Shown here in pieces: positions 13,922-51,970 of a stretch of DNA of 64,000 nucleotides. Each line of letters begins with the position of its first letter. The first letter of the stretch is position 1. Where the stretch lies: positions 11,168,001 through 11,232,000 of the forward strand of contig CP086569.2 of assembly GCA_009914755.4 (NCBI GenBank), read 5' to 3'. The stretch comes from the human T2T-CHM13v2.0 reference genome, Homo sapiens. The position numbers were made by a program, and so were the translations under genes. The notes below the pieces were generated by a model. That model ran no database searches. It was not told the DNA's origin and saw nothing but the letters and a program-made list of their open reading frames with translations.

Positions 13922-13944
13922 TTTCACTCCATTGCATTCCATTC

Positions 13945-19790: not shown

Positions 19791-19977
19791 ATTCCATTGC
19801 ATTCCATTCCATCCCATTCCATTCCACTCTATTTCCCTCAACTACTCTCCACTCCATTCCATTCCACTCTATCCCATTGTGTTCAACTCTATTCCACTCC
19901 ATTTCACTCCACTCCACTCCATTCCATTCCATTCTATTCCATTCCATTCCATTCCATTACACCCCATTGTGTTCCAT

Positions 19978-20070
19978 TCCTTTCTTTCCTCAGGATATCA
20001 CCGTGTCACCCAGGCTGGAGTTCAGTGGCACAATCTCAGTTCACATTACATGTCAACTTTCCATTGCATT
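19978..20070 (-). mobile_element. Alu 3'-end-derived spacer, subtype A
   Basis: A-type signature. Confidence 0.7.
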
Positions 20071-20395
20071 CCATTCTATTCCATTGCATTCCATTGCATT
20101 CCATTCCATTTCATTTCGTTCCATTGTATTCCATTCGAAGTCATTCCATTCCACTCCGTTCCACTCCACTCCACTTCACTCCATTACATCCGATTCCATT
20201 CCACTCCATTCCACTCTTCTCCACTCCACTGCTCTCCATTCCACTCCATTCCACTCCATCCTCTTCCGTTCGGCTGCTTTCCACTGCACTCCACTCCACC
20301 TCACTCCACTCCACTTCATTCCATTCCTTTCCATCCCATTGTATTCCTATCCATTCCACTTCACTCCACTTCACTCCACTCCACTCCAGTCTACT

Positions 20396-20470
20396 CCATT
20401 CCATTCCATTCCATTCCATTCCATTCCATTCCATTCCATTCCATTCCATTCCATTCCATTCCATTCCATT
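20396..20470 (+). repeat. Perfect (CCATT)15 run
   Basis: read directly. It abuts the poly-T side of the C3 spacer at 20491. Confidence 0.9.
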
Positions 20471-20490
20471 CCACTGCATTCCATTCCATT

Positions 20491-20570
20491 CCTTTCTGTT
20501 GAGAGTATCTCACTCTGTCACCCAGCCTTGAGCACAGTGGCACAGTCTCAGCTCACATTTAATTTCACCT
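20491..20570 (-). mobile_element. Alu 3'-end-derived spacer, subtype C3
   Basis: GAGAGTATCTCACTCTGTCACCCAGCCTTGAGCACAGTGGCACAGTCTCAGCTCACATTTAATTTCACC. Confidence 0.7.
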
Positions 20571-20778
20571 CTCCATTCCATTCCATTCCACTCCACTCAA
20601 CTCCACTCCACTCCAATCCATTCCACTCCACTCCTCTCCACTCCATTCCAGTCCACTCGACTCCTTTCTATTCCATCCCATTCCATTATTCTCCTTTCCA
20701 CTCCTCTCCGCTCCAATCAATTCCATTACATTCTACTCCATTCCATGCCATTCTACTCCATTCCATTCCATTCCATTC

Positions 20779-20860
20779 CTTTCTTTTGACAGGATCTCAC
20801 TCTATCACCCAGGCTGGTGTGCAGTGGCACAGTCTCAACTCACATTTCATTTCACTATTC
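20779..20860 (-). mobile_element. Alu 3'-end-derived spacer, subtype C1
   Basis: C1-type signature. Confidence 0.7.
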
Positions 20861-21149
20861 CATTCCATTCCATTCCTTTTCATTCCATTCCATTCTACTG
20901 CACTGCACTCCAACCCACTCAATTTCACTCCACTCTCCTCCACTCCACTCCACTCCATTCCACTCCTCTCCACTCACCTCCACTCCACTCCAATCCACTC
21001 CATTCCTCTCCACTCCATTCCACTTTACTTCACCCCACCCCATTTCACTCCACTCCACTCTACTCTACTCCACTGAACTCCATTCCTCTCCACTCCATTC
21101 TATTCTATTCCATTCCATTCCATTCCATTCCATTCCATTCCATTCCATT

Positions 21150-21230
21150 CCTTTCTTTCTACAGGATCTCACTCTGTCACAAAGCCTGGAGTGCACTGGC
21201 ATAATCTCAGCTCACATTTCTTTTCACCAT
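21150..21230 (-). mobile_element. Alu 3'-end-derived spacer, subtype B
   Basis: B-type signature. Confidence 0.7.
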
Positions 21231-21256
21231 TCCATTGCAATAAATTCCATTCCGTT

Positions 21257-21340
21257 CCTTTCTTTCTACAGGATCTCACCTTTCACAAAGACTGGAATGA
21301 ACTCTGACAATCTCAGCTCACACTAATTTTCACCATTCCA
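21257..21340 (-). mobile_element. Alu 3'-end-derived spacer, degenerate B-like copy
   Basis: T-rich tract + ACAGGATCTCACCTTTCACAAAGACTGGAATGAACTCTGACAATCTCAGCTCACACTAATTTTCACC. Lies only ~107 bp after the previous B copy. Confidence 0.5.
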
Positions 21341-21475
21341 TCTCATTGCATTCCACTCTATTTCACTCCACTCTACTCTGTTCCACTACATTCCATTCCA
21401 TTCCACTCCAATCCAATACTTTCTACTCCACTCCACTCCCCTCCATTCCATTCCATTCCACTCCATACCATTCCA

Positions 21476-21565
21476 TTCCTTTATTTTGACAGGATCTCAC
21501 TCTGTCACCCAGGCTGGAGTGCAGTGGCACAACCTCCGCTCACGTTTTATTTCATCATTCCATTC
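21476..21565 (-). mobile_element. Alu 3'-end-derived spacer, subtype C2/C1
   Basis: TTTATTTTGACAGGATCTCACTCTGTCACCCAGGCTGGAGTGCAGTGGCACAACCTCCGCTCACG. Confidence 0.7.
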
Positions 21566-21944
21566 CGTTCCATTCCACTGCACTTCACCCTACTCCAATC
21601 AATTTTACTCCACTCCACTCCAAACCATTCCGTTCCATTCCATTCCACTCCACTCCACTCCATTCAACTAACTCAACTGCACTTCACTCCATCGCATTCC
21701 ACTAAACTCCATTCCACCACACTCGACTCCAGTCCCCTCTGCTCCACTCCACTACACTCCATTACATTTTACTCCACTCCACTGCATTCGACTCCACTCC
21801 ACTCCATTCCAATCTGCTCCGCTCCACTCCACTCCACTCCTCTCCACTCCACTCCATTCCATTCCATTCCATTCCATTCCATTCCATTCCATTCCATTCC
21901 ATTCCAATCCATTCCATTCCATTACACCCCATTGTGTTCCATTC

Positions 21945-22035
21945 CTTTCTTTCAGCAGGATATCACTGTGTCACGCAGTCTGGAGTGCAGTGGCACAATC
22001 TCAGTTCACATTACATGTCAACTTTCCATTGCATT
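21945..22035 (-). mobile_element. Alu 3'-end-derived spacer, subtype A
   Basis: A-type signature. Confidence 0.7.
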
Positions 22036-22275
22036 CCATTCCATTCCATTCCATTCCACTCCACTCAACTCCACTCCACTCCAATCCATTCCACTCCACT
22101 CCTTTCTACTCCATTCCAGTCCACTCGACTCCTTTCTATTCCATCCCATTCCATTATTCTCCTTTCCACTCCTCTACGCTCCAATCAATTCCATTCCATT
22201 CTACTCCACTCCATGGCATTCTACTCCATTCCATTCCATTCCATTCCATTCCATTCCATTCCATTCCATTCCATT

Positions 22276-22355
22276 CCTTTCTTTTGACAGGATCTCACTC
22301 TATCACCCGGGCTGGTGTGCAGTGGCACAGTCTCAACTCACATTTCATTTCACTA
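22276..22355 (-). mobile_element. Alu 3'-end-derived spacer, subtype C1
   Basis: C1-type signature. Near-identical to the copy at 20779. Confidence 0.7.
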
Positions 22356-22632
22356 TTCCATTCCATTCCTTTTCATTCCATTCCATTCTACTGCACTCCA
22401 CTCCACCCCACTCAATTTCACTCCACTCTTCTCCTCTCCACTCCACTCCATTCCAATCTGCTCCCCTCCACTCCACTCCATTCCACTCCATTCCATTCCA
22501 TTCCACTCCATTCCATTCCATTCCACTCCATTCCATTCCATTCCATTCCATTCCATTCCATTCCATTCCATTCCATTCCACTCCATTCCATTCCATTCCA
22601 TTCCATTCCATTCCATTCCATTCCATTCCATT

Positions 22633-22710
22633 CCTTTCTTTCCACAGGATCTCACTCCGTCAAAAAGGCTGGAAATCAGTGATACAATATCAGCTCACAT
22701 TTCTTTCACC
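22633..22710 (-). mobile_element. Alu 3'-end-derived spacer, subtype B
   Basis: B-type signature (variant). Confidence 0.6.
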
Positions 22711-22950
22711 ATTCCATTGTTATCCATTCCATCCCATTCTTTCCACTATATTTCACTCACCTCCACTCCACTCCGTACCATTCCTTTGCATCCCGTTCCA
22801 TTCGACCCCAGTACACTACACTCCAGTTCACTCCATTCCATTCCTTTCCTTTCCATTCCATTCCATTCCATTCCATTCCATTCCATTCCATTCCATTCCA
22901 TTACATTCCATTCCATTACATTCCATTATTTCACACCATTGCCTTCCAAT

Positions 22951-23040
22951 CCTTTCTTTCAACGGGATGTCACGGTGTCCCCCAGGCTGGAGTGCAGTGG
23001 CACAATCTCAGCTCGCATTACATGTCAACTTTCCATTGCA
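22951..23040 (-). mobile_element. Alu 3'-end-derived spacer, subtype A
   Basis: A-type signature. Confidence 0.7.
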
Positions 23041-23342
23041 TTACATTCTGTTCCATTGCATTCCATTGCATTCCATTCCATTCCATTCCATTCCAGTGCA
23101 ATCCATTCGATTCTATCTCCTTCCTTTTCATTCAATTCCATTACTTTCCACTCCTTTCCACTCCACTCCTTTACATTACATGCGATTCCATTCCACTCCA
23201 TTCCACTCCCCCGCACTCCACTTCACTCCATTCCACTACATCCCATTCCATTCCACTCCATTCCACTGCAATCCACTCCACCTCTCTCCACTTCACTTCT
23301 TTCCATTTCATCCCATTCCATTCCAATCCCTTCCATTCCACT

Positions 23343-23420
23343 CCTTTCTTTCGACAGGATCTATCACTGTCACACAGGCTGTAGTGTACTGGCACAATCT
23401 CAACACACATTTCTTTTCAA
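23343..23420 (-). mobile_element. Alu 3'-end-derived spacer, subtype D
   Basis: D-type signature. Confidence 0.65.
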
Positions 23421-23555
23421 CATTCCATCAGATTCCGTTACACTGCACTCCACTCCACTCCACTCCAGGACACTCCACTCCACTCCACTCAATTCCATTT
23501 CACTCCTCTCTACTCCACTCATTCCACTCCACTTGACTCTCCTCCAACTCATTCC

Positions 23556-23600
23556 ACTCCACTCCACTCCACTCCACTCCACTCCACTCCACTCCATTCC
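23556..23600 (+). repeat. (ACTCC)8 homogeneous variant-pentamer run
   Basis: CCACTCCACTCCACTCCACTCCACTCCACTCCACTCC. Confidence 0.85.
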
Positions 23601-23708
23601 ACTACTTCCCATTCCATTCCTCTCCATTCCACTCCACTCCACTTCAGTCCCTTCCACTCACCTCCAGTCCCTGCCATTCCTTTCCATTCCACTGCATTCC
23701 ATTCCATT

Positions 23709-23790
23709 CTTTTTTTCGAGAGTATCTCACTCTGTCACCCAGCGTGGTGTGCAGTGACTTAATCTCAGCTCACATTTCATTTCACCATTC
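23709..23790 (-). mobile_element. Alu 3'-end-derived spacer, subtype C3
   Basis: C3-type signature. Confidence 0.65.
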
Positions 23791-23994
23791 CATTCCATTC
23801 CATTCCATTCCATTCCTTTCCACTCCTCCCCAATCCACTCTTCTCCAGTCCAATCCATTCCACTCCACTCCATTCCTGTCCACTCCACTTCTGTCCATTC
23901 TATCCCATTCCGTTCCCCTCTTTTCCACTCCACACCACTCCAGTCAACTCTACTCAACTCCACTCCTTTCCATTCCACTCTATTCCATTCCATT

Positions 23995-24075
23995 GCTTTC
24001 TTTGTGAGTATCTCACACTGTCACCCAGGCTGGTGTTCAGTGACACAATCTCAGCTCACATTTCAATTCACCATT
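23995..24075 (-). mobile_element. Alu 3'-end-derived spacer, subtype C3
   Basis: C3-type signature. Confidence 0.65.
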
Positions 24076-24221
24076 CCATGACATTCCTTTCCATTCCATT
24101 CCATTCAATTCCATTCCATTCCTTTCCATTCCACTGCACTCCAATCCACTCCATTCAATGCCACTCCATGGCACTCAAGGCCATTCCATTCCATTATATT
24201 CCAATTCCTTCTCTTCTACTC

Positions 24222-24300
24222 CTTTCTTTTGACAGGATCTCCCTTTGTCCCACTGGGTGTACAGTAGTTGCACTATCTCATCACACATTATTTTCACCAT
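24222..24300 (-). mobile_element. Alu 3'-end-derived spacer, degenerate D-like
   Basis: TTTTGACAGGATCTCCCTTTGTCCCACTGGGTGTACAGTAGTTGCACTATCTCATCACACATTATTTTCACC. Confidence 0.5.
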
Positions 24301-24654
24301 TCTATTGCTTTGCGTTCTGTTCCGTTCCCTTATGTTCCGTATTGTTCCACTCTGTTCCACTCCACTCCCTTCCACTCCACTCCATTCAACTCCACTCCAC
24401 TCCTCTCCACTCCACTCCACTCCACTCCATTCCACTAAACACCACTCCACTCCAACCCACTACATTCCACTCCATTCCATTCCACTTATTTCCACTGCAC
24501 TCCACTCCACTCCATTCCACTCCCCTCCAGTCCATTCCACTATACTTCACTCCATTCCTCTCCACTCCATTTTACTCCACTGCATTCCACTTCACTCCAC
24601 TCCACTCCACTCCACTCCATTCCATTCCATTCCATTCCACTCCATTCCATTCCA

Positions 24655-24740
24655 TTCCTTTCTTTCCACACAATGTCACTCTGTCACAAAGGCTGTAGTG
24701 CATTGGCACAATCTTAGCTTCCATTTATTTACACCATTCC
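24655..24740 (-). mobile_element. Alu 3'-end-derived spacer, subtype B
   Basis: B-type signature. Confidence 0.65.
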
Positions 24741-24902
24741 ATTGCATTCCATTCCGTCCCATTCCAATCCATTCTATTTCACTCCACCCCACTCCACTCC
24801 ATCCCATTCCATTCGATTCCATTCCACTCCACTCCACTCCACTCCACTCTACTCCATTCCATTCCAACCCATGCCATTCCATTGCACTCCATTGCATTCC
24901 AT

Positions 24903-25000
24903 TCCTTTCTCTTGACAGGATTTCACTGTGTCACCCAGGCTGGAGAGCACAGGCAGAATGTCAGCTCACATTACAGGTTAACTTTCCATTGCTTTGCATT
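24903..25000 (-). mobile_element. Alu 3'-end-derived spacer, subtype A
   Basis: A-type signature (variant). Confidence 0.65.
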
Positions 25001-25435
25001 CTATTCCATTGCATTTCTTTCCATTCCATTCCATTCTGTTCAATTCTATTCGATTCAATTCCATTCCGTTCCATTCCATTCCATGCGGTCCACTCCACTC
25101 TACTCCACTACATTCCATTACATCCGATTTCATTCCACTCCATTCCACTCCACTACACTCTACTCCACTCCATCCCATTCCATTCCGCTCTATTCCACTG
25201 CACTGCACTGCACCTCAATCCACTCAACTTCATTCCATTCCATTCCATCCCATTCCATTCCTCTCCATTCCACTCCATTCTACTTCACACCACTCCACTC
25301 CAGTCCATTCCATTCCATTCCATTCCATTCCATTCCATTCCACTTCACTCCACTCCACTCCATTCCACTCCACTGCACACCACTCCACTCCATTCCAATC
25401 CTTCCCATTCCATTCAGCTCCATTCCACTCTATTA

Positions 25436-25490
25436 CTGAGCATGGATCTCAGTGTCACAATCTAAGCTCACATTTTATTTCACAATTCCA
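25436..25490 (-). mobile_element. Alu 3'-end-derived spacer, internally deleted copy
   Basis: CATGGATCTCAGTGTCACAATCTAAGCTCACATTTTATTTCAC. It lacks the CCCAGGCTGGAGTGCAGTGG core and the poly-T tract. Confidence 0.4.
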
Positions 25491-26003
25491 TTCCATTCAA
25501 TTCCATTCTATTCCATTACATTCCATTTCACTCCGTTCCACTTCACTCCACTCCAATACACTACATTCCATTACATCCGTTTCTATTCCACTCCATTACA
25601 CTCCTCCCCACTCCACTGAACTCCACGCCACTTCATTCCACTTCAACCCATTCAATTCCGCTCCTTTGCACTGCACTCCACTCAACCCCAATCCACTCAA
25701 CTTCATTTATTTCCATTCCACCCCATTCCATTCCTCTCCATTCCACTCCACTCAAATTCACTCCACTCCATTCCATTCCACTCCATTCCACTCCACTCCA
25801 TTCCAGTCCACTCCACTCCATTCCATTCCATCCCATTCCATTCCACTCTTTTCCACTCCGTTCCACTCCACTCCACTCCATTGCAATCCACTACACTCCA
25901 ATCGAATTAATTCCACTCCATTCCATTCCATTCCATTCCATTCCATTCCATTCCATTCCATTCCATTCCATTCCATTCCATTTCACTCCAATACATTCCA
26001 TAC

Positions 26004-26095
26004 CTTTCTTTCGACAAGATATCACTGTGTCACCCAGGCTTGAGTGCAGTGGCACAATCTCAGCTCACATTACATGTCAACTTTCCATTGCATTG
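26004..26095 (-). mobile_element. Alu 3'-end-derived spacer, subtype A
   Basis: A-type signature. Confidence 0.7.
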
Positions 26096-26484
26096 CATTC
26101 TATTCCATTGTATTCCATTCCATTCCAATCAATTCCATTCCATTCCAATACATTCCATTCCATTCAAGAAAATTCCATTCCATCCCGTTCCACTCCACTC
26201 CACTCCACTCCACTACATTTCATTACATCAGAATCCATTCCACTCCATTCCACTCCTTTCCACTCCACTGCACACCACTCCACTCCATTCCAATCCTTCC
26301 CATTCCATTCAGCTCCATTCCACTGCAGTCCACACCACCCCACTCCCCTCCAATTCATTCCATTCCATTCCGTCCCATTCCATTCCTCTCCATTCCACTC
26401 TACTCCATTTCACTCCACTCCTCTCTACTGCTGTTCATTCCATTCCCTTCCACTCCATTCCATTCCACTGCTTTCCGTTCCATT

Positions 26485-26565
26485 CCTTTCTTTTGAGAGT
26501 ATCTCACTCTCTCACCCAGCCTGGAGCACAGTGGCACAAACTCAGCTCATACTTCATTACAATTC
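26485..26565 (-). mobile_element. Alu 3'-end-derived spacer, subtype C3
   Basis: C3-type signature. Confidence 0.7.
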
Positions 26566-26715
26566 CATTGCATTGCATTCCATTCTATTCCATTCCATTC
26601 CATTCCATTCCATTCCATTCCATTCCATTCCATTCCACTTCACTCCACTCCACTCCATTCCACTCCACTCCACTCTAATCCATTCCATTCCATTCCAATC
26701 CCTTCCTTTTCTCTC

Positions 26716-26795
26716 CTTTCTTTCGACAGGATCTCCCTCTGTCACAGAGGCTGTAGCCTAGTGTCACAATCTCAGCACACATTTCCCTTCACCTT
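26716..26795 (-). mobile_element. Alu 3'-end-derived spacer, subtype D
   Basis: D-type signature. Confidence 0.65.
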
Positions 26796-27149
26796 TCCGT
26801 TCTGTTTTTTTCCTTTCCATTCTGTAACATTCCGTTCCACTCCACTCCACTCTATTCCACTCCACTCCACTCGGTTTCATTCCACTTTATTTGATTCCAC
26901 TCTATTGCACTGCACTCCATTCCACCCCACTCCACTCCATTCCACCCCACTCCACTCCATTCCACTCCATTCCATTCGGCTCCATTGCACTTCTCTCCAC
27001 TCCACCCCACTCCACTCCACTCCACTGCATTCCACTCCTCTCCACTCCACTACACTACATTCAACTCCACTCTACTCCACTCCATTCCACTCCCCTCCAC
27101 TCCACTCCACTCCACTCCATTCCATTCTATTACACTCTAGTCCATTCCA

Positions 27150-27235
27150 TTTCTTTCTTTCCCCAGGATCTCACTCTGTTACAAAAGTTGGAGTGCAGTG
27201 GCAGAATCTCAGCTCACATTTCTTTTCATCATTCC
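27150..27235 (-). mobile_element. Alu 3'-end-derived spacer, subtype B
   Basis: B-type signature. Confidence 0.7.
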
Positions 27236-27404
27236 TTTGCTTTCCCTTCCATTCCATTCCACTCAATTTCACTCCACTCCACTGCATTCCATTCCACTCG
27301 ATCCCATTCCATTCAACTCAATTCCACTCCACTCCACTTCACTCCACTCCACTCCAGTCCACTCCATTCCATTCCATTCCATTTCAGACCATTGCATTCC
27401 ATTC

Positions 27405-27500
27405 CTATCTTTCAACAGGATATCACTGGGTCACCCAGGCTGGAGTGCAGTGGCACAATATCAACTCACATTACATGTCAACATACAATTGCATTGCGAT
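27405..27500 (-). mobile_element. Alu 3'-end-derived spacer, subtype A
   Basis: A-type signature. Confidence 0.7.
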
Positions 27501-27824
27501 CTATTCCATTGCTTTCCATTGCATTCCATTCCTTTCCATTCCATTCCATGCAATTCAATTCCATCCCACTACATTCCACTACATTCCATTACATCTGATT
27601 CCATTCCACTACATTCCACTCCTCTCCACTCTACTGCACTCCACTCTACTCCATTCCACTCCATCCCATTTCATTCCACTTCATGCCGCTGCACTCCACT
27701 CTACCCTACTCCACTCCACTTCATTCAATTCCATCCCATTCCATTCCTCTCCATTCCATTCCACTCCACTTCCCTCCACTCCACTACATTCCTCTCTATT
27801 CCATTCCACTGCATTTCATTCCAT

Positions 27825-27905
27825 TCCTTTCTTTAGAGAGTATGTCACTCTGTCACCCATCCTGGAGCACAATGTCACAATCCCATCTCACATTTCATTT
27901 CACCA
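27825..27905 (-). mobile_element. Alu 3'-end-derived spacer, subtype C3
   Basis: C3-type signature. Confidence 0.65.
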
Positions 27906-28117
27906 TTCCGTTCCATTCCATTCCATTCCATTCCATTCCAGTCCATTCCAGTCCACTCCACTGCACTCCGCTCCATTCCAATCTATTCCACTCAACTCCA
28001 CTCCACTCTATTCCAGTTCACTCCACTCCTTTCAATTCCATCCAGTTCCAATGCACTGTTTTCCACTCCACTGCACTCCACTCCATTGCAGTCCATTCCA
28101 CGCCATTTCATTTCATT

Positions 28118-28200
28118 CCTTTCTTTTGACAGGATCTCACTCTGTTACCCAGGCAGGTGTGCAATGGCACAATCTCAGCTCACATTTCATTTCACCATTA
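28118..28200 (-). mobile_element. Alu 3'-end-derived spacer, subtype C1
   Basis: C1-type signature. Confidence 0.7.
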
Positions 28201-28305
28201 AATTCCATTGCATTCTATTCCACTGCACTCCACTACACTCAATTTCATTCGACTCCACTCCAATCCATTCTATTCCATTCCATTCCATTCCATTCCGTTC
28301 CATTC

Positions 28306-28340
28306 CGTTCCGTTCCGTTCCGTTCCGTTCCGTTCCGTTC
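28306..28340 (+). repeat. (CGTTC)7 CpG-retaining variant-pentamer run
   Basis: CGTTCCGTTCCGTTCCGTTCCGTTCCGTTCCGTTC read directly. Confidence 0.9.
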
Positions 28341-28380
28341 CATTCCATTCCATTCCATTCCAATCCCTTCCATTCAATTC

Positions 28381-28460
28381 CTTTCTTTCAACAGGATCTT
28401 CCTCTGTCACACAGGCTGTAGTGTAATGGACCAATCTCAGCACATATTTCTTTTCACTAT
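28381..28460 (-). mobile_element. Alu 3'-end-derived spacer, subtype D
   Basis: D-type signature. Confidence 0.65.
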
Positions 28461-28735
28461 TCCATTCCAGTTCTTTCCATTCCATTCTGTTCCATTCCGT
28501 TCCATTCCATTCCATTCCATTCCACTCCACTCTTCTCCACTCCACTCCACTCCTCTCAGTTCCCTCCACTCCATTCTAATCCACTCCACTCCTTTCCACT
28601 CCATTCCACTCCACTCCACTCCATTCCACTCCACTCCACTCCATTCCACTCCACCCCACTCCATTCCATTCCAGTCCACTCCACTCCACTTCACTCCATT
28701 CCACTCCATTCCATTCCACTCCATTCCATTCCATT

Positions 28736-28815
28736 CCTTTCTTTCCACAGGATCCCAATCTGTCACAAAGTCTGGAGTGTAGTTGCACAATCTCAGCTCA
28801 CATTTCTTTTGACCA
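28736..28815 (-). mobile_element. Alu 3'-end-derived spacer, subtype B
   Basis: B-type signature. Confidence 0.7.
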
Positions 28816-29022
28816 TTCCATTGCCTTCCATTCCGTCCCATTCCATTACACTCTATTGCACTCCACTCCACTCTACTACACTCCACTCCACTCAAATCCA
28901 TTCCATTCCATCCCATTCCATTCGATTCCATTCCACTCCACTCCATTGAACTGCACTCCACTCCATTCCCTTCCATTCCATTGCAACCATTCCATTCCAT
29001 TTCACTCCATTGCATTCCATTC

Positions 29023-29120
29023 CTTTCTTTTGGCAGGATATCACTGTGTCACCCAGGCTGGAGTGCAGTGGCACAATCTCAGCTCACATTACTTCTCAAC
29101 TTTCCATTGCATTGCATTCT
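29023..29120 (-). mobile_element. Alu 3'-end-derived spacer, subtype A
   Basis: A-type signature (TTTTGGCAGGATATCACTGTGTCACCCAGGCTGGAGTGCAGTGGCACAATCTCAGCTCACATTACTTCTCAACTTTCC). Confidence 0.75.
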
Positions 29121-29642
29121 GTTCAATTGCATTCCATTGCATCCCATTCCATTTCATTCCATTGCACTCCATTCCATTCAATTCCACTCCGTTGCACTCA
29201 ACTCCACTCCACTGCTTTCCATCACATCCGATTCCATTCCACTCCATTCCACACCTCTCCACTCCACTGCACTCCACGACAATCCATTCAACTACATCCC
29301 ATTCCATTCCACTCCACTCCACTCCACCATATTCCACTCAAGTTCATTCCATTCAATTCCATCCTATTCCGTTCTTCTGTATTCCACTCCGCTCCCTCCA
29401 CTCCTCTCCATTCCACTCCACTCCTTTCCACTCCACTCCATTCCACTCCTCTCCATTCCATTCCACTCCACTCTACTCCATTCCACTCCACTCCGTTCCA
29501 CTCCATGCCACTCCACTCCACTCCACCCCACTCCACCCACTCCGTTTCACTCCATTCCACTGCACTCCATTCCACTCTACTCCACTACATTCTCTTCCAT
29601 TCCACTCCACTCCATCCCACTCCACTCCATTCCATTCCATTC

Positions 29643-29725
29643 CTTTCTTTCCACAGGATCTCACTCTGTCACAAAGTCTGGAGTGAACTGGCACAATCTC
29701 AACACATATTTCTTTTCAGCGTTCT
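29643..29725 (-). mobile_element. Alu 3'-end-derived spacer, subtype B
   Basis: B-type signature. Confidence 0.7.
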
Positions 29726-29874
29726 ATTGCATTCTATTAAATCTTATTCCATTCCACTCTATTTTGCTCCTCTCCACTCCATTCCATTCCACTGCAGAAC
29801 GTTCCAATCGACTCCACTCCACTCCAATTCATTCCATTCCATTCCATTCCATTTAACTCCTTTGCATTCCATTA

Positions 29875-29970
29875 CTTTCTTTCGACAGGATATCACTGTG
29901 TCACTCAGGCTGTGGTGCAGTGGAACAATCTCATCTCACATTACATGCCAACTTGCCATTTTATTGCATT
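29875..29970 (-). mobile_element. Alu 3'-end-derived spacer, subtype A
   Basis: A-type signature. Confidence 0.7.
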
Positions 29971-30292
29971 CTATTCCATTGCATTCCATTCTATTCCATT
30001 CCATTCAATTCCAGTATATTCGACTCCATTCCACTCCACTGCACTCCACTCCACTACATTCAATTACATCCGATTCCATTCCACTCCACTCCACTCCTGT
30101 CCACACCACTGCAATCCAATCCATTCCATTCCACTCCATCCCATTGCATTACCCTCCCATACACTGTAATCCTCTCCCCCGCACTCCATTCCACTTCATT
30201 CCATTCCATTCCATTCCTCTCCATTCCACTCCACTCCACTCCCCTCCAGTCCACGCCATTCCATTCCATTCCACAGCATTCCATTCCATTCA

Positions 30293-30370
30293 TCTTTGGA
30301 GATTATCTCACTCTGTCACCCAGCCTGGAGTGCAGTGGCATAATCTCAGCTCACATTTTATTTCACCATT
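30293..30370 (-). mobile_element. Alu 3'-end-derived spacer, subtype C3
   Basis: C3-type signature (GAGATTATCTCACTCTGTCACCCAGCCTGGAGTGCAGTGGCATAATCTCAGCTCAC). Confidence 0.7.
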
Positions 30371-30551
30371 CCAGTCCATTTTATTCCATTCCATTCCACT
30401 CCACTCTTCTCCATGCCAATCGATTCCACTCCACTTCACTCCACTCCATTCCAGTCCACTCCACTCCTTTCCATTCCATTCCATTTCATTCCACTCCTTT
30501 CCACTCCACTCCACTCAACTCCACTCCATTCTACTCCATTCCATTCCATTC

Positions 30552-30630
30552 CTTTCTTTTGACACCATCTCACTCTGTTACCCAGACTGATGTGCAGTGG
30601 CTCAATCTCAGCTCAAATTTCATTTCACAT
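30552..30630 (-). mobile_element. Alu 3'-end-derived spacer, subtype C1
   Basis: C1-type signature. Confidence 0.65.
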
Positions 30631-30756
30631 TCCATTCCATTCCATTGCATTGCATTCCATTCCATTCCAATGCACTCCACTCCTCGCCACTCAATTCCAC
30701 TCCACTCTACTCCAGTCCATTCCTTTCCATTACATTCCAATCCCTTCTATTCCACT

Positions 30757-30835
30757 CCTTTCTTTCAACAGGATCTCCCTCTCTCACACAGGCTGCAGTT
30801 TAGTGGCACAATCTCAGCACACATTTCTTTGCAAC
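30757..30835 (-). mobile_element. Alu 3'-end-derived spacer, subtype D
   Basis: D-type signature. Confidence 0.65.
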
Positions 30836-31218
30836 ATTCCATTGCATTCCATTCCATTCCATTCCACTCCGTTCCTCTCCACTCCACTCCACCCAATTCC
30901 AATCCACTCCATTCCACTCCACTCCACTCTACTCCCTTCCACTCCACTCCACTCCAGTCCACTCCATTCCAATCTACTCCGTTCCACTCCACTCCAATGC
31001 ACTCCTCTCCATTCCATTCCTTTCTGCACCATTCCACTGCAATCCACTCCACCCCAATCGACTCCACTCCACTCCACTACTTTCCACTCCAGTCTACTCC
31101 ACTCCATTCCATTAAGCTCCACTCCACTCCATTACATTAAGCTCCACTCCATTTCACTTCACTCCATTCAACTCCACTCCACTCCTTTCCATTCCATTCC
31201 ACTCCATTCTATTCCACT

Positions 31219-31300
31219 CCTTTCTTTCCACCGGGTCTCTCTCTTTCACAAAGTTTGTAGTGCAGTGGCACAATCTCAGCTTATATTTATTTTCACCATT
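31219..31300 (-). mobile_element. Alu 3'-end-derived spacer, subtype B
   Basis: B-type signature. Confidence 0.65.
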
Positions 31301-31485
31301 TCATTGCATTCCATTCCATCCCATTCCATTCCACTCTTTTTCACTCCTCTCCCCTCCACTCTATCCCATTTCACTCCATCCCATTCCATTTGATTCCATT
31401 CCACTCCACTCCACTCCACTCCACTCCATTCCGTTCCTTTCCATTCTATTCTATTCCATTCCATTGCTCTCCATTGCATTCCATT

Positions 31486-31580
31486 ACTTTCTTTCGATAG
31501 GATTTGACTGTGTCACACAGGTTGGAGTGTAGTGGCACAATCTCAGCTCACATTACATGTCAACTTTCCATTTCTTTTCA
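31486..31580 (-). mobile_element. Alu 3'-end-derived spacer, subtype A
   Basis: A-type signature. Confidence 0.7.
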
Positions 31581-31996
31581 TTCTATTCAATTGCATTCCA
31601 TTCCATTCCATTCCATTCCGTTCCGTTCCGTTCCATTCCGTTCCGTTCCATTCCATTTCATTTAATTCCATTCCATTCAACTCCTTTCCACTCCACTCCA
31701 CCCCACTCAACTACATTCCATTACATCCGATTCCGTTCCACTCCATTCCACTCCTCTCCACTCCACTCCACTCCACTCCACTCCACTCCATTCCACTCCA
31801 TCCCATTCCATTCGGCTCCATTCCACTGCACTCCCCTCCACCCCAATTCACTCCACTTCATTCCATTCTGTTCCATCCCATTCAATTCCTCTACATTCCA
31901 CTCCGATCCTCTTCACTCCACACCACTCCAGTCCACTCCATTTCATTGCATTCTCTTCCATTCCATTCCAGTCCATTCCACTCCATCTCATTCCAT

Positions 31997-32080
31997 TCCT
32001 TTCTTTTGAGAGTATTTCACTCTGTTACCAAGACTAGAGTGCAGTGGCACAATCTCAGCTCCCATTTCATTTCACCATTC
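31997..32080 (-). mobile_element. Alu 3'-end-derived spacer, subtype C3
   Basis: C3-type signature. Confidence 0.65.
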
Positions 32081-32388
32081 CAATCCATTCCATTCCATTA
32101 TATTCCACTCTGTTCAATGCCACTCCACTACATTCCATTACATCCGATTCCACTCCATTCCATTCCTCTCCTCTCTACTCCACTACACTCCACTACATTC
32201 CATTCCACTCCATCACCTTCCATTCGGCTCCATTCCACTGCAGTCCACTCCACCCTAATCCAATCCACTTCATTCCATCCCATTCCATCCCATTCCATTC
32301 CTCTTCATTCCACTCCAATCCACTTAACTCCACCCACTCCGTTCCAGTCCACTCCATTTCATTGCATTCCATTCCATTCCACTCCATT

Positions 32389-32470
32389 CCTTTCTTTTGA
32401 GATTATCTCACTCTGATACCAATCCTATAGCACAGTGGCAAATTCTCAGCTCACATTTCATTTCACCATT
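32389..32470 (-). mobile_element. Alu 3'-end-derived spacer, subtype C3
   Basis: C3-type signature (diverged). Confidence 0.55.
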
Positions 32471-32735
32471 CCTTTCCATTCCATTTTATTCCTTTGCATT
32501 CCATTCCATTCCACTCCACTCTACTCCAATCATCTCCACTCCATTCCATTCCACTCTGTTCCAGTCCACTCCTCTCCATTCCATTCCATCCCATTTCATT
32601 CCACTCATTTCCACTCCATTCCACTCCACTCCATTCTACTCCACTCAAATCCTCTGCTCTCCACTGCACTCCACTCCACAAAATTGCTCTCCAATCCATT
32701 CCATTCCATTCCATTTCACTCCATTGCATTCCATT

Positions 32736-32830
32736 CCTTTCTTTCCACAGGATATCACTGTGTTACCCAGGCTTGAGTACAGTGGCACAATCTCAGCTCA
32801 CACTTCATATCCAGTTTCCATTGCATTCCA
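32736..32830 (-). mobile_element. Alu 3'-end-derived spacer, subtype A
   Basis: A-type signature. Confidence 0.65.
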
Positions 32831-33162
32831 TTCTATTCCATTCCATTCCATTCCGTTAAATTCCTTTCCATTCCCTTCCACTCCACTCCACTACGTTTCA
32901 TTACATCCAATTCCATTCTACTCTATTCCACTTCTCTCCACTTCACTGCACACTACTTCACTTCATTCCACTCCATCCCATTACATTCCGCTCCATTACT
33001 CTGCACTCCACTCCACCCCACTCCACTCCTGTTGATTCCATTCTATTCAATCCCATTCTATTCTTCTCCATTCCACTCTACTCCACTTCACTCAATTCCA
33101 CTCCACTGCAGTCCAATCCTTTCCATTCCATTCCATTCCATTCCACTGCGTTTCATTCCATT

Positions 33163-33240
33163 CCTTTCTTTCGAGACTATCTCACTCTGTCACCCAGCCT
33201 TTAAGCAGAGTGCACAAACTAAGTTCACATTTCATTACCA
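33163..33240 (-). mobile_element. Alu 3'-end-derived spacer, subtype C3
   Basis: C3-type signature (diverged). Confidence 0.55.
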
Positions 33241-33325
33241 TTCCATTCCATTTCTTTCCTCTACACTCCAGTACTCCTCTCCACTCCATTCCATTCCATT
33301 CCATTTTACTCCATTGCATTGCATT

Positions 33326-33410
33326 CCTTTCTTTTGACAGGTTCTTCCTCTGTCACCCAGGCTGGTGTGTTGTAGCACAATCTCGGCTCACATTTCATTT
33401 CACCAATCCA
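33326..33410 (-). mobile_element. Alu 3'-end-derived spacer, subtype C1
   Basis: C1-type signature. Confidence 0.65.
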
Positions 33411-33502
33411 TTCCACTACACGCCACTCCACTCCACTGAATTCCACTCCACTCCACTGCAATCCATTCCTTTCCATTACATTCCATTCCATTCCTACTAT
33501 TT

Positions 33503-33585
33503 CATTTCTTTCTTTTGACAGGATCTCCCTCTGTCACACAGGCTGTAGCATAGTGGTAAAATCTCAGCACACGTTCCTTTTCACC
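33503..33585 (-). mobile_element. Alu 3'-end-derived spacer, subtype D
   Basis: D-type signature. Confidence 0.65.
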
Positions 33586-33673
33586 ATTCCATTCCATTCC
33601 ATTCCACTGCATTCCACTCCACCCCACTCCACTCCTCCCCATTCCATTCCATTCCACTCCTTTCAATCCCATT

Positions 33674-33755
33674 CCTTTCTTTCCACAGGATCTCACCCTG
33701 CCACAAATGCTGGAGTTCTGTGGCACAATCTCAGCTCACTTTTCTTTTCACTATT
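33674..33755 (-). mobile_element. Alu 3'-end-derived spacer, subtype B
   Basis: B-type signature. Confidence 0.65.
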
Positions 33756-33935
33756 CCATTGCATTCTATTCCATCCCATTACATTCCACTTTATTTCACT
33801 CCACTCCACTCTAATCCACTCCACTCCACTCCATTCCACTTCACTTCATCCCATTCCATTCGACTCCATTACACTCACCTCCACTCCATTCAATTCCTTT
33901 CCGTTCCATTTCTTTTCACACCATTGCATTCCATT

Positions 33936-34035
33936 CCTTTCTCTCAACAGGATGTCACTGTGTCCCCCAGGCTGGAGTGCAGTGGAACAATCTCAGCTCA
34001 CATTACATGTCAGCTTTCCATTTCATTGCATTCTA
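33936..34035 (-). mobile_element. Alu 3'-end-derived spacer, subtype A
   Basis: A-type signature. Confidence 0.7.
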
Positions 34036-34385
34036 TTCCATTGCATTCCATTCCATTCCATTGCATTCCATTACATTCCACTCCACTCCACTCCACATCA
34101 TTACATTAAATCTGATTCCACTCCACTGCACTCCACTACATTTCATTACTTCTGATTCCATTCCACTCCTCTCCACTCCACTGTACACCACTACACTCAA
34201 TTCCACTCCATCCCCTTCCATTCCGCTCCATTCCACTGCACTCCACTCCACCCCACTCCACTCCACTTCATTCCATTCCACTTCATGCCATTCCATTCCT
34301 CTCCATTCCACTCTACTCCACTTAACTCCATTTCACTCCACTGCAGGCCACTCCATTCCATTCAGTTCCACTGCATTCCATTCCA

Positions 34386-34465
34386 TTCCTTTCTTTTGAG
34401 AGTACCTCGCTCTGTCACCCAGCCTGGAGTGCAGTGGCAGAAATTCAGTTCACATTTCGTTACTA
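34386..34465 (-). mobile_element. Alu 3'-end-derived spacer, subtype C3
   Basis: C3-type signature. Confidence 0.65.
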
Positions 34466-34572
34466 TTCGATTCCACTCCATTCCATTCCACTGTACTCCA
34501 CTCCACTCAATTCCTCTCCATTCCACTCCAACTGATTCCATTCCATTCCATTCCAATCTCTTCCATTCAACT

Positions 34573-34655
34573 CCTTTCTTTCAACAGGATCTCCCGCTGT
34601 CACACAGGCTGTTGCCTAGTGGCACAGTCTCAGCACACATTTCTTTTTGCAATTC
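34573..34655 (-). mobile_element. Alu 3'-end-derived spacer, subtype D
   Basis: D-type signature. Confidence 0.65.
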
Positions 34656-35059
34656 CATTCCATTCCATTCCATTCCATTCCATTCCACGCCCCTCCATTC
34701 CACTCCACTTCGTTACATTCCACTTTACTCCACTCCACTCCATTCCACTCCACTCCACTCCATTCCATTCCAGTTTATTCTATTCCACTCCATTGCACTG
34801 CACTCCATTCCACCCCACTCCTCTCCATTCCACTCCATTCCATTCCTCTCCATTGCACTGTAATCCACTCCATCCCTCTCCACTCCACTCTACTCCACCA
34901 CATTCCACTCCACTCCACTCCATTCCAATCCACTCCATTCCACTCCCCTCCATTCCACTCCTCTCCATTCCTCTCCACTACACTCCACTTCACTCCACTC
35001 CACTCCATTACACTACACTCCAATCCATTCCATTCCATTACTCTCCATTCAATTCCATT

Positions 35060-35145
35060 ACTTTCCTTCCACAGGATCTCACTCTGTTACAAAGTTTGGA
35101 GTGCAATGGCACAATCTCAACTCACATTTCTTTTCATCATTCCAT
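35060..35145 (-). mobile_element. Alu 3'-end-derived spacer, subtype B
   Basis: B-type signature. Confidence 0.65.
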
Positions 35146-35306
35146 TGCATTCCATTCCATTACACTCAGTTTCACTCCACTCCATGCCACTCCATTCCAT
35201 TCTCCTCCATCCCATTCTATTCGACTCCATTCCACTCAACTCCACTCCACTCCACTTCAGTCCTCTCCATTCCATTCCACTAAATTCCAGTGCCTTCCAT
35301 TCCATT

Positions 35307-35390
35307 AGTTTCTTTCGAGAGTATCTCACTCTGTCACCCAGGCTGGAGCGCAGTGGCACAATTTCAGCTCACATTTCATTTCACCATTCC
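35307..35390 (-). mobile_element. Alu 3'-end-derived spacer, subtype C3
   Basis: C3-type signature. Confidence 0.7.
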
Positions 35391-35563
35391 ATTCCATTCC
35401 ATTCCATTCCATTCCATTCCATTCCATTCCATTCCACTCTAATCCATTAAACTCCACTCCACTACACTCCATTCAATTCCACTCCATCCCATTCCATGCC
35501 ACTCCTTTCCACTCCAGTCCACTACACTCTGTACCATTCATTTCCACTCCATTCCATTCCCTT

Positions 35564-35650
35564 GCTTTCTTTTGACAGTATCTCACTCTGTCACCCAGGC
35601 TGGTGTGCAGTGACACAGTCTCAGGTCACATTTCATTTCACCATTCCATT
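35564..35650 (-). mobile_element. Alu 3'-end-derived spacer, subtype C1
   Basis: C1-type signature. Confidence 0.7.
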
Positions 35651-35789
35651 GCATTTCATTCCGTTCCATTATATTCCATTCCACTCCATTCGACTGCACT
35701 CCACTCCGATCCACTCAATTCCACTGCACTCCACTGGAATCCATTCCATTATATTCTATTCCATTCCAATCCTTTAAATTCCGCTCCAT

Positions 35790-35870
35790 TCTTTCAAAAT
35801 GATCTCCCTCTGACACACAGGCTGTAACATAGTGGCACAATCTCAGCACACATTCCTTTTCACCATTCCA
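35790..35870 (-). mobile_element. Alu 3'-end-derived spacer, subtype D
   Basis: D-type signature. Confidence 0.65.
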
Positions 35871-36202
35871 TTCCGTTCTGTTCCGTTCCACTCCATTGCA
35901 TTCTGTTCCATTCCATTCCATTCTGTTCCACTCCTTTCCACTCCAATCCACTCCACTCCATTCCATTTCACTCCATGTCATTTCAATCCACTCCACTCCA
36001 GTCCATTACACTCCAATTCACTCCACCCCACTCCATGCCATTCCACTACGTTCCATTCCGTTCCATTGCACTGCACTCCACTCCACCACACTCCACTCTA
36101 CTCCAGTCCACGCTATTGCACTGCACTCCACTCCACTTCACTCCACTCCACTCCAATCCATTCAAATCCATTGGATTCCATTTCAATCATTGTATTCCAT
36201 TC

Positions 36203-36300
36203 CTTTCTTTCAACAGGATATCACTGTGTCACCCAGGCTGGAGTGCAGTGGCACAATCGCAGCTCACATTACATGTCAACTTTCCTTTGCATTGCATTCT
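36203..36300 (-). mobile_element. Alu 3'-end-derived spacer, subtype A
   Basis: A-type signature. Confidence 0.75.
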
Positions 36301-36623
36301 ATAACATTGCATTGCATTCCATTCCATTCCATTTCACTCCGTTCCACTCCAATCTATTCCAATCCACAACATTCCATTACATCCGATTCCATTCCACGCC
36401 ATTCCACTCCCCTCACCTCCACTGCACTCCATGCCACTGCATTCCACTGCATCCTTTTCCATTCCACTCCGTTAGTCAGCACTCCCTTCTTCCTGACTCC
36501 ACTCCACTTCATTCCATTCCATTCCTTCCCATTCCATTACACTCCTTTCTCCTCCACTACACTTTACTCCACTCCACTCCAGTCCACTGCATTCCATTCC
36601 ATTCCACTGCATTCCATTCCATT

Positions 36624-36710
36624 CCTTTCTTTCAATAGTATCCCACTCTGTCACCCAGCCTGCAGTGTAGTGGCACAATCTCAGCTCGAATTTCATTCAC
36701 CTATCCATTC
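36624..36710 (-). mobile_element. Alu 3'-end-derived spacer, subtype C3
   Basis: C3-type signature. Confidence 0.65.
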
Positions 36711-36923
36711 CATTCCATTCCATTCCATTCCATTCAATTCCACTAAATCCACTCCACTCCAATCCATTCCAGTTCACTTCACTCCTTTCCAGTCCACGCA
36801 ACTCCTTTCCATTCCATACCATTCCATTCTTCTCCTTTCCACTCCACTCCAGTCTACTCCAATCACCTCCATTCCATTCCATTCCATTCCATTCCATTCC
36901 ATTCCATTCCATTCCATTCCATT

Positions 36924-37005
36924 CCTTTCTTTTGATAGGATCTCACTCTGTCACCCTGGCTGGTGTGCAGTGGCACAATCTCAGCTCACATTTCATTTCA
37001 ACATT
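36924..37005 (-). mobile_element. Alu 3'-end-derived spacer, subtype C1
   Basis: C1-type signature. Confidence 0.7.
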
Positions 37006-51955: not shown

Positions 51956-51970
51956 GCACTTTATTGCATT

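What the first reader, a model, noticed from the sequence alone, without database searches (positions are those of the whole stretch)
27825..29120. Higher-order repeat: ordered C3-C1-D-B-A superunit of about 0.9-1.3 kb
Spacer subtypes are defined by shared internal substitutions and by subtype-specific flanks. They recur in the same order at 27825-29120, 30293-31580, 33163-34035, 48788-50035 and 55966-56985. The stretch 57071-58710 follows the order C3-C1-D-A-B-A. Many partial or permuted instances also occur, including C3-C1-D, B-A pairs 230-370 bp apart, and doublets such as C3-C3, C1-C1 and A-A-A. This is a complex higher-order structure with variable (ATTCC)n filler, typical of unequal-crossover evolution, and it offers markers for assembly validation.
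Basis: seen in the sequence. Interest (0 to 1): 0.7.

Follow-up and report, generated by a model that had tools for sequence, protein, structure and literature searches.

The report
Old five-part repeat in pentamer satellite

Summary
A profile search finds 136 copies of an 85-90 bp non-pentameric spacer, all on the + strand. Order is far from random: 73 of 135 transitions are the cyclic successor, against 27.4 ± 4.7 expected. Spacings, 80-bp flanks and fillers are also subtype-specific, so the ancestral unit is about 1.6 kb.

The spacer is the last ~58 bp plus A-tail of an Alu, antisense to the ATTCC strand, with CpG decay shared by all copies. This indicates a single capture.

It is not a homogeneous HOR. 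Copies of one subtype differ by ~16% whatever their distance, and whole units are only 75-80% identical. It is a relict, rearranged nested tandem repeat of an HSat3A4-like satellite.

The same subtypes, order and spacings recur in independent metagenome contigs, probably host (human) contamination. A variant in D (T at column 46) is private to this array's C3-C1-D-B-A lineage. The class is known (HSat3 with Alu fragments). I did not find the ordered subtypes described in the papers searched. Species and chromosome could not be determined.

The parts
1..64000 (+). Continuous pentameric satellite, with ATTCC and ACTCC in nearly equal amounts on the + strand. It carries 136 Alu-derived spacers, all in one orientation. 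Spacers are sparse in 1-20 kb and dense in 20-64 kb.
   Evidence: TRF reports period 5 over 2..63954. Composition is 41% C and 5% G. Pentamer census: ATTCC 14727, ACTCC 13445. Apart from the spacers, only two short patches break the 5-bp period.
27825..29110 (+). Canonical superunit 1: C3 27825-27913, C1 28117-28205, D 28379-28468, B 28735-28824, A 29021-29110.
30288..31573 (+). Canonical superunit 2: C3 30288, C1 30550, D 30756, B 31218, A 31485.
33162..34023 (+). Canonical superunit 3, a compact copy with shortened fillers: C3 33162, C1 33325, D 33506, B 33673, A 33935.
48788..50025 (+). Canonical superunit 4: C3 48788, C1 49065, D 49262, B 49679, A 49935.
55966..56977 (+). Canonical superunit 5: C3 55966, C1 56227, D 56414, B 56591, A 56888.
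57070..58697 (+). Variant unit C3-C1-D-A-B-A.
38215..39216 (+). Second superunit type C3-C1-D-X-E. Its D copy carries C at column 46. A second copy lies at 41061-42114; the two stretches align at 76% identity with an offset of 2863.
41061..42114 (+). Second copy of the C3-C1-D-X-E superunit.
5090..8670 (+). Two copies of a D-X-E unit with a period of 1364-1368 bp (D 5923 and 7291; X 6205 and 7548; E 6375 and 7718). This is the best long self-alignment in the window: 79% identity over 2254 bp.
49346..52183 (+). Local B-A two-spacer unit repeated three times with a period of about 1 kb (B 49679, 50664, 51693; A 49935, 50961, 51975).
   Evidence: offset 974, 76% identity.
20572..20950 (+). The only recent duplication or conversion tract in the window. 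It is ~97% identical to 22040-22448, with one ~30 bp indel, and includes the C1 spacers at 20777 and 22275.

Best explanation
The window is a stretch of primate classical satellite 3 (HSat3A4-like, ATTCC/ACTCC pentamers). Its repeat hierarchy has three levels.

1. One Alu 3' end (~58 bp plus the A-tail remnant, antisense to the ATTCC strand) became embedded in the pentamer array once.
2. The block [Alu fragment + ATTCC run + ACTCC-rich core + ATTCC run], 200-440 bp long, duplicated in tandem. The copies diverged into positional variants: C3, C1, D, B and A, plus X and E.
3. A five-block superunit of about 1.6 kb, C3-C1-D-B-A, was amplified as a unit. A sister form, C3-C1-D-X-E, was amplified as well.

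In this array the amplified C3-C1-D-B-A lineage came from a founder carrying a private D variant, T at column 46. Amplification then stopped. Copies decayed independently to ~9-10% from their subtype consensus without local homogenisation. Out-of-register exchange or slippage deleted, duplicated and reshuffled whole blocks and changed filler lengths, mostly in 5-bp steps.

The spacers are passive markers of ancestry. Nothing indicates that they have a function.

Shown here: single origin of the spacer, discrete subtypes, order, spacing, filler homology, absence of homogenisation, and the private variant. Inferred: the order of events and the exchange mechanism.
For: Single capture:
- All 136 copies are on the + strand with the same end points.
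- The reverse complement of the consensus aligns to a published Alu consensus (PMC5454918) at positions 226-283 plus the A-tail.
- The five mismatches in the first 49 bp are all CpG>TpG and are shared by the family.

Discrete subtypes.

Order: 73/135 successor transitions against 27.4 +/- 4.7 expected, and five exact C3-C1-D-B-A runs against 0.04 expected.

The whole unit, not only the spacer, is the repeated entity:
- Intervals are transition-specific: medians 262, 201, 435, 259 and 440 bp (Kruskal-Wallis p = 2e-6).
- Flanks predict the subtype.
- Fillers of the same transition type are more alike than fillers of different types (z = 14.6).
- All fillers share one architecture: ACTCC makes up 9% and 17% of the two pentamers in the end deciles and ~60% in the middle.

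Propagation at the superunit level:
- D has T at column 46 in all 16 copies set in a B/A context.
- D has C there in exactly the 4 copies followed by X-E.
- In independent contigs, D in a C3-C1-D-B/A context has C46 in 17 of 17 copies with a base at that column.

The structure is family-wide. Of 120 metagenome contigs carrying the spacer, several show the same order (for example L092, L040, L011, L032) and the same spacings. The A and D subtypes were recovered de novo, and C1 by its position.

The amplification is old and unhomogenised:
- Same-subtype divergence is 15.6-16.6% in every distance bin from 0 to 64 kb.
- No long self-alignment exceeds 81% identity.
- There is a single ~400 bp tract at ~97% identity.

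Literature:
- HSat3 arrays on the Y and the acrocentrics are intermingled with Alu fragments, without local homogenisation (10.1101/2022.12.01.518724).
- HSat3 repeat units include TE fragments and form nested tandem repeats (10.1101/2021.07.12.452052).
Against: - Only 54% of transitions are canonical, and only 5 complete units exist in 64 kb. The 'unit' is therefore a statistical consensus, not a regular period.
- The k-mer interval spectrum has no array-wide peak.
- The first 20 kb barely shows the superunit; it holds mostly isolated B-A pairs.
- Assignment to HSat3A4 is indirect. The window contains no exact copy of any published subfamily 24-mer.
- Copy divergence of ~10% from consensus is high for an Alu-derived sequence under ordinary substitution rates, and the transition/transversion ratio is 0.83. 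Neither is explained.
- Contig counts are not independent, because several contigs are the same locus from different samples.
- Short-read metagenome assemblies of satellites can be chimeric.
Confidence: 0.85

Rival explanations
1. The ordered pattern is a by-product of a few recent large segmental duplications within the array, not of an ancestral superunit.
For: Some local multi-kb self-alignments exist, at offsets of 1364, 2863, 974 and 6504-10289 bp. There is one ~97% identical 400-bp tract.
Against: Those alignments are only 75-79% identical, which is close to the 72-75% background of any pentamer stretch aligned against any other. The five complete units are not near-identical to one another. 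Same-subtype divergence does not depend on distance. The same order and spacing occur in independent contigs that share no more than 90% identity with the window.
Confidence: 0.05
2. The spacers are many independent Alu insertions into the satellite, later truncated.
For: Alu elements do insert into HSat3. The T2T-Y preprint describes HSat3 intermingled with Alu fragments.
Against: All 136 copies share orientation, both end points and the same CpG>TpG changes. They also share the same downstream degenerate pentamers (ATTTCATTTCACC) and a dominant pentamer phase. Subtype differences are few point substitutions on a common backbone.
Confidence: 0.01
3. Assembly or sequencing artefact: a collapsed or mis-joined repeat, or errors creating apparent subtypes.
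For: Satellite arrays are error-prone in assemblies. The transition/transversion ratio is unusually low.
Against: Subtype alleles are linked across many columns and to flanks, spacing and neighbours. The same subtypes and order appear in independently assembled contigs from other samples. At 15-25% divergence between copies, collapse is unlikely.
Confidence: 0.02
4. The superunit is maintained because it is functional, for example as a spaced array of protein-binding or transcribed elements, rather than being a neutral relic.
For: From general knowledge, not tested here: HSat3 is transcribed under stress in human cells. The order and spacing are conserved across loci.
Against: There is no homogenisation or sign of constraint. 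Copies are ~10% from consensus with a near-uniform spread. Almost half of the transitions are rearranged. From general knowledge, the retained Alu part lacks the left-arm A and B boxes of the Pol III promoter. There is no Rfam match.
Confidence: 0.03

Closest known systems
Human satellite 3, subfamily HSat3A4 (acrocentric short arms and Y; clone pTRS-47), as defined by Altemose et al. 2014 (PMC4022460) and mapped in T2T-CHM13
   Same: The array is pentameric and built from GGAAT and GGAGT units, which is how I recall pTRS-47 being described. It lacks the B-type 10-mer. Related contigs carrying the same spacer contain the most common HSat3A4-specific 24-mer exactly, 7 times, and none of the HSat3A1-A3, A5 or B 24-mers; single contigs carry one exact HSat2A2 or HSat3A6 24-mer. 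The best self-alignment in the window has an offset of 1364 bp, against a published pTRS-47 unit of 1366 bp.
   Different: The window itself has no exact subfamily 24-mer, only 3 within one mismatch. The 1.37 kb unit is present only twice, at 79% identity. The dominant structure here is a five-spacer unit of ~1.6 kb.
HSat3 arrays intermingled with AluY fragments on chrY and the acrocentrics (T2T-Y preprint 10.1101/2022.12.01.518724)
   Same: Alu fragments are interspersed in HSat3. There is no local homogenisation of the fragments; one search agrees.
   Different: That paper reports no clustering of the fragments by subgroup or chromosome. Here the fragments cluster sharply by position within a superunit. 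One variant is private to this array's lineage.
Nested tandem repeats of HSat2/HSat3, such as DYZ1 (3.6 kb, HSat3A6) and the 1.77 kb HSat2A2 unit
   Same: A kilobase-scale unit built from diverged pentamers, evolving by local expansion.
   Different: From the literature, those arrays show regular periodicity: the published repeat units reproduce the read topology of HSat2A2 and HSat3A6, and DYZ1 occurs primarily as ~3.6 kb units. This array is decayed and irregular and is recognisable only through its Alu-derived landmarks.
HSat1B / DYZ2 (2.5 kb composite unit with one Alu-derived subunit)
   Same: A single Alu-derived piece co-amplified as part of a satellite unit.
   Different: It belongs to an unrelated AT-rich family with one Alu piece per unit, and the chrY copies are highly homogenised. 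Here there are five short Alu pieces per unit and no homogenisation.
Divergent alpha-satellite HORs (dHORs)
   Same: An ordered set of monomer types whose copies have decayed, so that the order is partly lost. The T2T centromere supplement notes that for some dHORs only the number of monomer types is clear.
   Different: The monomers here are composite (Alu fragment plus pentamer runs) and vary from 200 to 440 bp, rather than being 171-bp alpha monomers.

Membership tests
Classical satellite 3 (HSat3-type pentameric satellite) | An array derived from (ATTCC)n / (GGAAT)n pentamers. | tested here: met
   TRF period 5 over 2..63954. ATTCC and ACTCC rotations dominate the pentamer census.
HSat3 A branch (versus B branch) | Absence of the interspersed B-type 10-mer (CAACCCGAGT / ACTCGGGTTG). 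This criterion is recalled from memory. The B1 24-mer in PMC4022460 contains CACTCGGGTTG. | tested here: met
   Zero occurrences on either strand.
HSat3A4 subfamily (Altemose 2014) | Presence of subfamily-specific 24-mers. Only the single most common one per subfamily was available. | tested here: inconclusive
   The window has 0 exact matches and 3 within one mismatch. Contigs with the same spacer have 7 exact and 43 within one mismatch; no HSat3A1-A3, A5 or B 24-mer is exact in them, though HSat3A6 and HSat2A2 each have one exact hit. About 1.3 exact matches would be expected in 64 kb, so zero is not informative.
pTRS-47 higher-order unit | A 1.37 kb tandem unit (1366 bp) and sequence identity to the clone. 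| tested here: inconclusive
   An offset of 1364-1368 bp is seen once, as two copies at 79% identity.
Homogeneous higher-order repeat (alpha-satellite sense) | Copies of the multi-monomer unit are much more alike (typically 95-100%) than the monomers within a unit. | tested here: not met
   Same-subtype spacers are 84% identical, against 73-80% between subtypes. Whole units are 75-80% identical. Only one tract of at least 150 bp exceeds 92% identity.
Higher-order / nested tandem repeat in the broad sense | Distinct monomer types recurring in a fixed order, with homology extending over the whole unit. | tested here: met
   Order, spacing, flanks, fillers, and a neighbour-linked variant.
Alu-derived sequence | Alignment to the Alu consensus. 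| tested here: met
   The consensus aligns to positions 226-283 plus the A-tail of the consensus printed in PMC5454918. Mismatches in the first 49 bp are CpG>TpG. The Alu subfamily cannot be assigned, because the site I recall as distinguishing Y from S lies outside the retained part.
Human origin / specific chromosome | Near-identity to a mapped human sequence. | not testable with these tools
   No primate genome collection was available. No contig was more than 90% identical over at least 250 bp. Exact ORF look-up was negative. Bacterial-genome and viral scans were negative.

The most novel reading that the evidence does not exclude
The Alu fragments of HSat3A4-type arrays may not be an unstructured swarm, as the T2T-Y analysis suggested. 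They may instead be positional variants of an ancient superunit of about 1.6 kb with five blocks (or more), with array-private variants such as D-T46. If so, they record which acrocentric or Y arrays were seeded from which founder unit. They would then serve as a phylogenetic marker system for exchange between heterologous acrocentric short arms and the Y.
Probability: 0.3. Interest if true: 0.4.

Novelty: new member of a known kind. Interest (0 to 1): 0.3.

Why it matters
The finding gives a concrete, testable decomposition of an otherwise featureless 64 kb of pentameric satellite. The decomposition consists of spacer types, their order, their spacings and one array-private variant.

If it holds across complete assemblies, the subtypes could be used in three ways:
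- to annotate HSat3A4-type arrays;
- to trace how arrays on different acrocentric chromosomes and the Y are related;
- to detect rearrangements.

It does not reveal a new kind of element or a function. It refines the description of a known satellite class.

Tried and rejected
- **Average-linkage clustering** only peeled off outliers. Ward and spectral clustering were used instead.
- **k-mer interval spectrum** (NTRprism-like): there is no array-wide period. The two strongest peaks, at 1326-1376 and 1476-1500 bp, coincide with the offsets of two local duplications.
- **Published subfamily 24-mers**: none is exact in the window.
- **Locating the source**: the 20-mer scan of bacterial/archaeal genomes and of viral contigs gave 0 hits. 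The metagenome scan gave 120 related contigs, none overlapping the window at high identity. Exact look-up of ten window ORFs in the protein collection gave 0. I ran no further search on this, because sample accessions would not name the organism.
- **Rfam** at E <= 10 on 27700-31700: no match. This is expected for a ~60-nt piece of a 7SL-derived element.
- **Literature**: I found no description of ordered Alu-fragment subtypes in HSat3. The pTRS-47 paper and the published Science version of the centromere paper are not held. The preprint supplement gives no subfamily-level unit structure.
- **Independent Alu insertions and assembly artefact** were considered and rejected; see the rival explanations.

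Full report
**What is in the window**

All 64 kb is one uninterrupted pentameric satellite. TRF reports period 5 over 2..63954. The + strand is 41% C and 5% G. ATTCC and ACTCC are present in nearly equal amounts. The only regular interruptions are copies of an 85-90 bp non-pentameric spacer. A profile built from the five spacers in the reported interval, iterated once, finds 136 copies, all on the + strand. Outside these copies only two short patches break the 5-bp period.

**What the spacer is**

The family consensus is TTTCTTTCGACAGGATCTCACTCTGTCACCCAGGCTGGAGTGCAGTGGCACAATCTCAGCTCACAT, followed by degenerate pentamers (ATTTCATTTCACC).
- Its reverse complement aligns to positions 226-283 of a published Alu consensus (PMC5454918), and continues into an A-rich tail remnant. 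An Alu consensus written from memory gave the same alignment.
- The five mismatches in the first 49 bp are all CpG>TpG on the Alu sense strand.
- These changes, both end points and the orientation are shared by the family.

The spacers therefore descend from one captured Alu 3' end, not from many insertions. I recall that the site separating AluY from AluS lies just outside the retained part, so the Alu subfamily cannot be assigned here. Rfam gives no match.

**Check of the observation: subtypes**

- Ward clustering of 85 aligned columns gives silhouettes of 0.22-0.25 for k=3-6. Column-shuffled controls give about 0.02-0.04, with a maximum of 0.10.
- Spectral clustering agrees (ARI 0.95).
- At k=5 the clusters hold 38, 27, 23, 20 and 28 copies.
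- Each subtype is defined by 2-8 substitutions. These are present in 45-100% of its copies (18 of 24 at >=0.8). 18 of 24 are at 0-7% in the other subtypes; the rest, some shared between subtypes, reach 27%.

**Check of the observation: order**

- Reading the subtypes along the window, the complete order C3-C1-D-B-A occurs five times, starting at 27825, 30288, 33162, 48788 and 55966.
- 57070-58697 reads C3-C1-D-A-B-A, as claimed.
- 73 of 135 neighbour transitions are the cyclic successor. Permutation gives 27.4 +/- 4.7, with a maximum of 50 in 20000 trials.
- Five exact runs compare with 0.04 expected.

**The whole unit is repeated, not only the spacer**

- Start-to-start intervals are specific to each transition. 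Medians are C3>C1 262, C1>D 201, D>B 435, B>A 259 and A>C3 440 bp (Kruskal-Wallis p = 2e-6). They sum to about 1.6 kb.
- Eighty bases of purely pentameric flank predict the subtype with 57-63% leave-one-out accuracy, against 28% for the majority class.
- Fillers of the same transition type align better than fillers of different types (z = 14.6 by label permutation).
- Every filler has the same architecture: ATTCC-rich ends and an ACTCC-rich core. ACTCC makes up 9% and 17% of the two pentamers in the end deciles and about 60% in the middle.

The basic block is therefore [Alu fragment + ATTCC run + ACTCC-rich core + ATTCC run], 200-440 bp long, and the superunit is five such blocks.

**More types and a second superunit**

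- Four copies (6375, 7718, 39127, 42026) form a sixth type, E.
- The four copies just upstream of them (6205, 7548, 38935, 41791) lack the C1 diagnostic change and look near-ancestral. I call them X.
- Together they define C3-C1-D-X-E at 38215-39216 and 41061-42114.
- They also define D-X-E at 5923-6464 and 7291-7807, with a period of 1364-1368 bp. This is the best long self-alignment in the window (79% over 2.25 kb).
- A point variant in D separates the two superunits perfectly. All 16 D copies in a B/A context have T at column 46. Exactly the four D copies followed by X-E have C. By my calculation the chance of this partition is 1 in 4845.

This shows that superunits, not single blocks, were the units of propagation.

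**Independent sequences**

These are presumably host DNA.
- None overlaps the window: the maximum is ~90% identity over 250 bp, and long alignments sit at the 72-77% background.
- The contigs carry 697 spacers. The A and D subtypes re-emerge de novo with the same or nearly the same consensus, and C1 is recovered by its position after C3.
- Contigs such as L092, L040, L011 and L032 read C3-C1-D-B-A with the same spacings. A is followed by C3 in 35 of 40 cases, and C3 by C1 in 79 of 92.
- Many other contigs are runs of generic spacers, so the family also contains differently organised domains.
- These counts are not independent, because several contigs are the same locus from different samples.
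- In the contigs, D copies in a C3-C1-D-B/A context carry C46 in 17 of 17 copies with a base at that column. T46 is therefore private to this array's C3-C1-D-B-A lineage, which implies local amplification from one founder unit, or a species difference.

**Age and dynamics**

- Copies lie 8.5-10% from their subtype consensus.
- Same-subtype pairwise divergence is 15.6-16.6% in every distance bin from 0 to 64 kb (Spearman rho 0.04). There is no local homogenisation.
- No long self-alignment exceeds 81% identity.
- The only stretch of at least 150 bp above 92% identity is a ~400 bp tract, 20572-20950 versus 22040-22448, at ~97%.
- A k-mer interval spectrum shows no array-wide period. Its two strongest peaks coincide with the offsets of two local duplications.
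- Non-canonical transitions are block skips (16, 12 and 20 for one, two and three blocks skipped) or same-type doublets (14), tallied from the table.
- Interval lengths fall in one pentamer phase in 58% of cases.

This fits deletion and duplication by out-of-register exchange or slippage. That mechanism is inferred, not shown.

**Comparison with what is known**

- The T2T-Y preprint states that some HSat3 arrays on the Y and the acrocentrics are intermingled with Alu fragments. It reports no local homogenisation and no clustering by subgroup or chromosome.
- The T2T centromere preprint notes that HSat3 units include ancient TE fragments. It introduces the term 'nested tandem repeat' for irregular kilobase-scale units.
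- Altemose et al. 2014 list subfamily 24-mers and a 1366 bp pTRS-47 unit for HSat3A4.
- The window has no exact subfamily 24-mer. The related contigs contain the HSat3A4 24-mer exactly seven times and none of the HSat3A1-A3, A5 or B ones; single contigs carry one exact HSat2A2 or HSat3A6 24-mer.

I therefore file the window as HSat3A4-like, with membership not proven. It fails the test for a homogeneous HOR and meets the broader definition of an ordered higher-order or nested tandem repeat. In the papers I could search, I did not find the positional subtypes, their order, or the array-private variant described. The pTRS-47 paper and the final centromere paper were not available.

**Verdict**

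The accurate description is a relict, rearranged five-block superunit of about 1.6 kb in an Alu-tagged satellite 3 array. This is a new, well-resolved example of a known kind of structure, with modest value as a marker system and no evidence of function. Species and chromosome remain undetermined.

Noticed in passing
window, all 136 spacers (Alu-derived columns): The substitution spectrum of copies against their subtype consensus has a transition/transversion ratio of 0.83. G>T and C>A are frequent (G>A 7.3%, C>T 5.7%, G>T 5.2%, C>A 3.3% per site). Together with ~10% divergence from consensus, this looks unlike ordinary neutral decay of an Alu.
   Followed up: partly
window 20572-20950 versus 22040-22448: This is the only recent event in 64 kb: a ~400 bp tract at ~97% identity with one ~30 bp indel, about 1.47-1.5 kb apart, which is roughly one superunit. 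It could be a duplication or a gene-conversion tract.
   Followed up: partly
window 1-20000 versus 20000-64000: Spacer density changes sharply. The first 20 kb has pure pentamer stretches of up to 4 kb and mostly isolated B-A pairs and D-X-E units. From ~20 kb onwards spacers occur every 200-500 bp. Weak 75% self-alignments at offsets of 6.5 and 10.3 kb hint at a larger-scale repeat in the sparse part.
   Followed up: no
Type E is rare here (4 copies), but a matching cluster of 55 copies exists in the related contigs.
   Followed up: yes
window, D spacers, alignment column 46 (for example 28379 versus 38684): T versus C at this column partitions the 20 D copies perfectly by downstream neighbour: B/A context versus X-E. 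T is almost absent (2%) from D copies in the related contigs.
   Followed up: yes
window 36457-36491: The only clear patch that is neither spacer nor pentameric (…CCGTTAGTCAGCACTCCCTTCTTCCTGACTCC…). Its origin was not examined.
   Followed up: no
window, + strand throughout (for example 59831-62452): There are very long ORFs, up to 873 aa, with 94 of at least 170 aa. They are simply a consequence of the G-poor, stop-poor composition. None of ten tested is in the protein collection.
   Followed up: yes
They are presumably host contamination. Several are the same locus from different samples with filler-length differences, for example L040, L092 and L032.
   Followed up: partly
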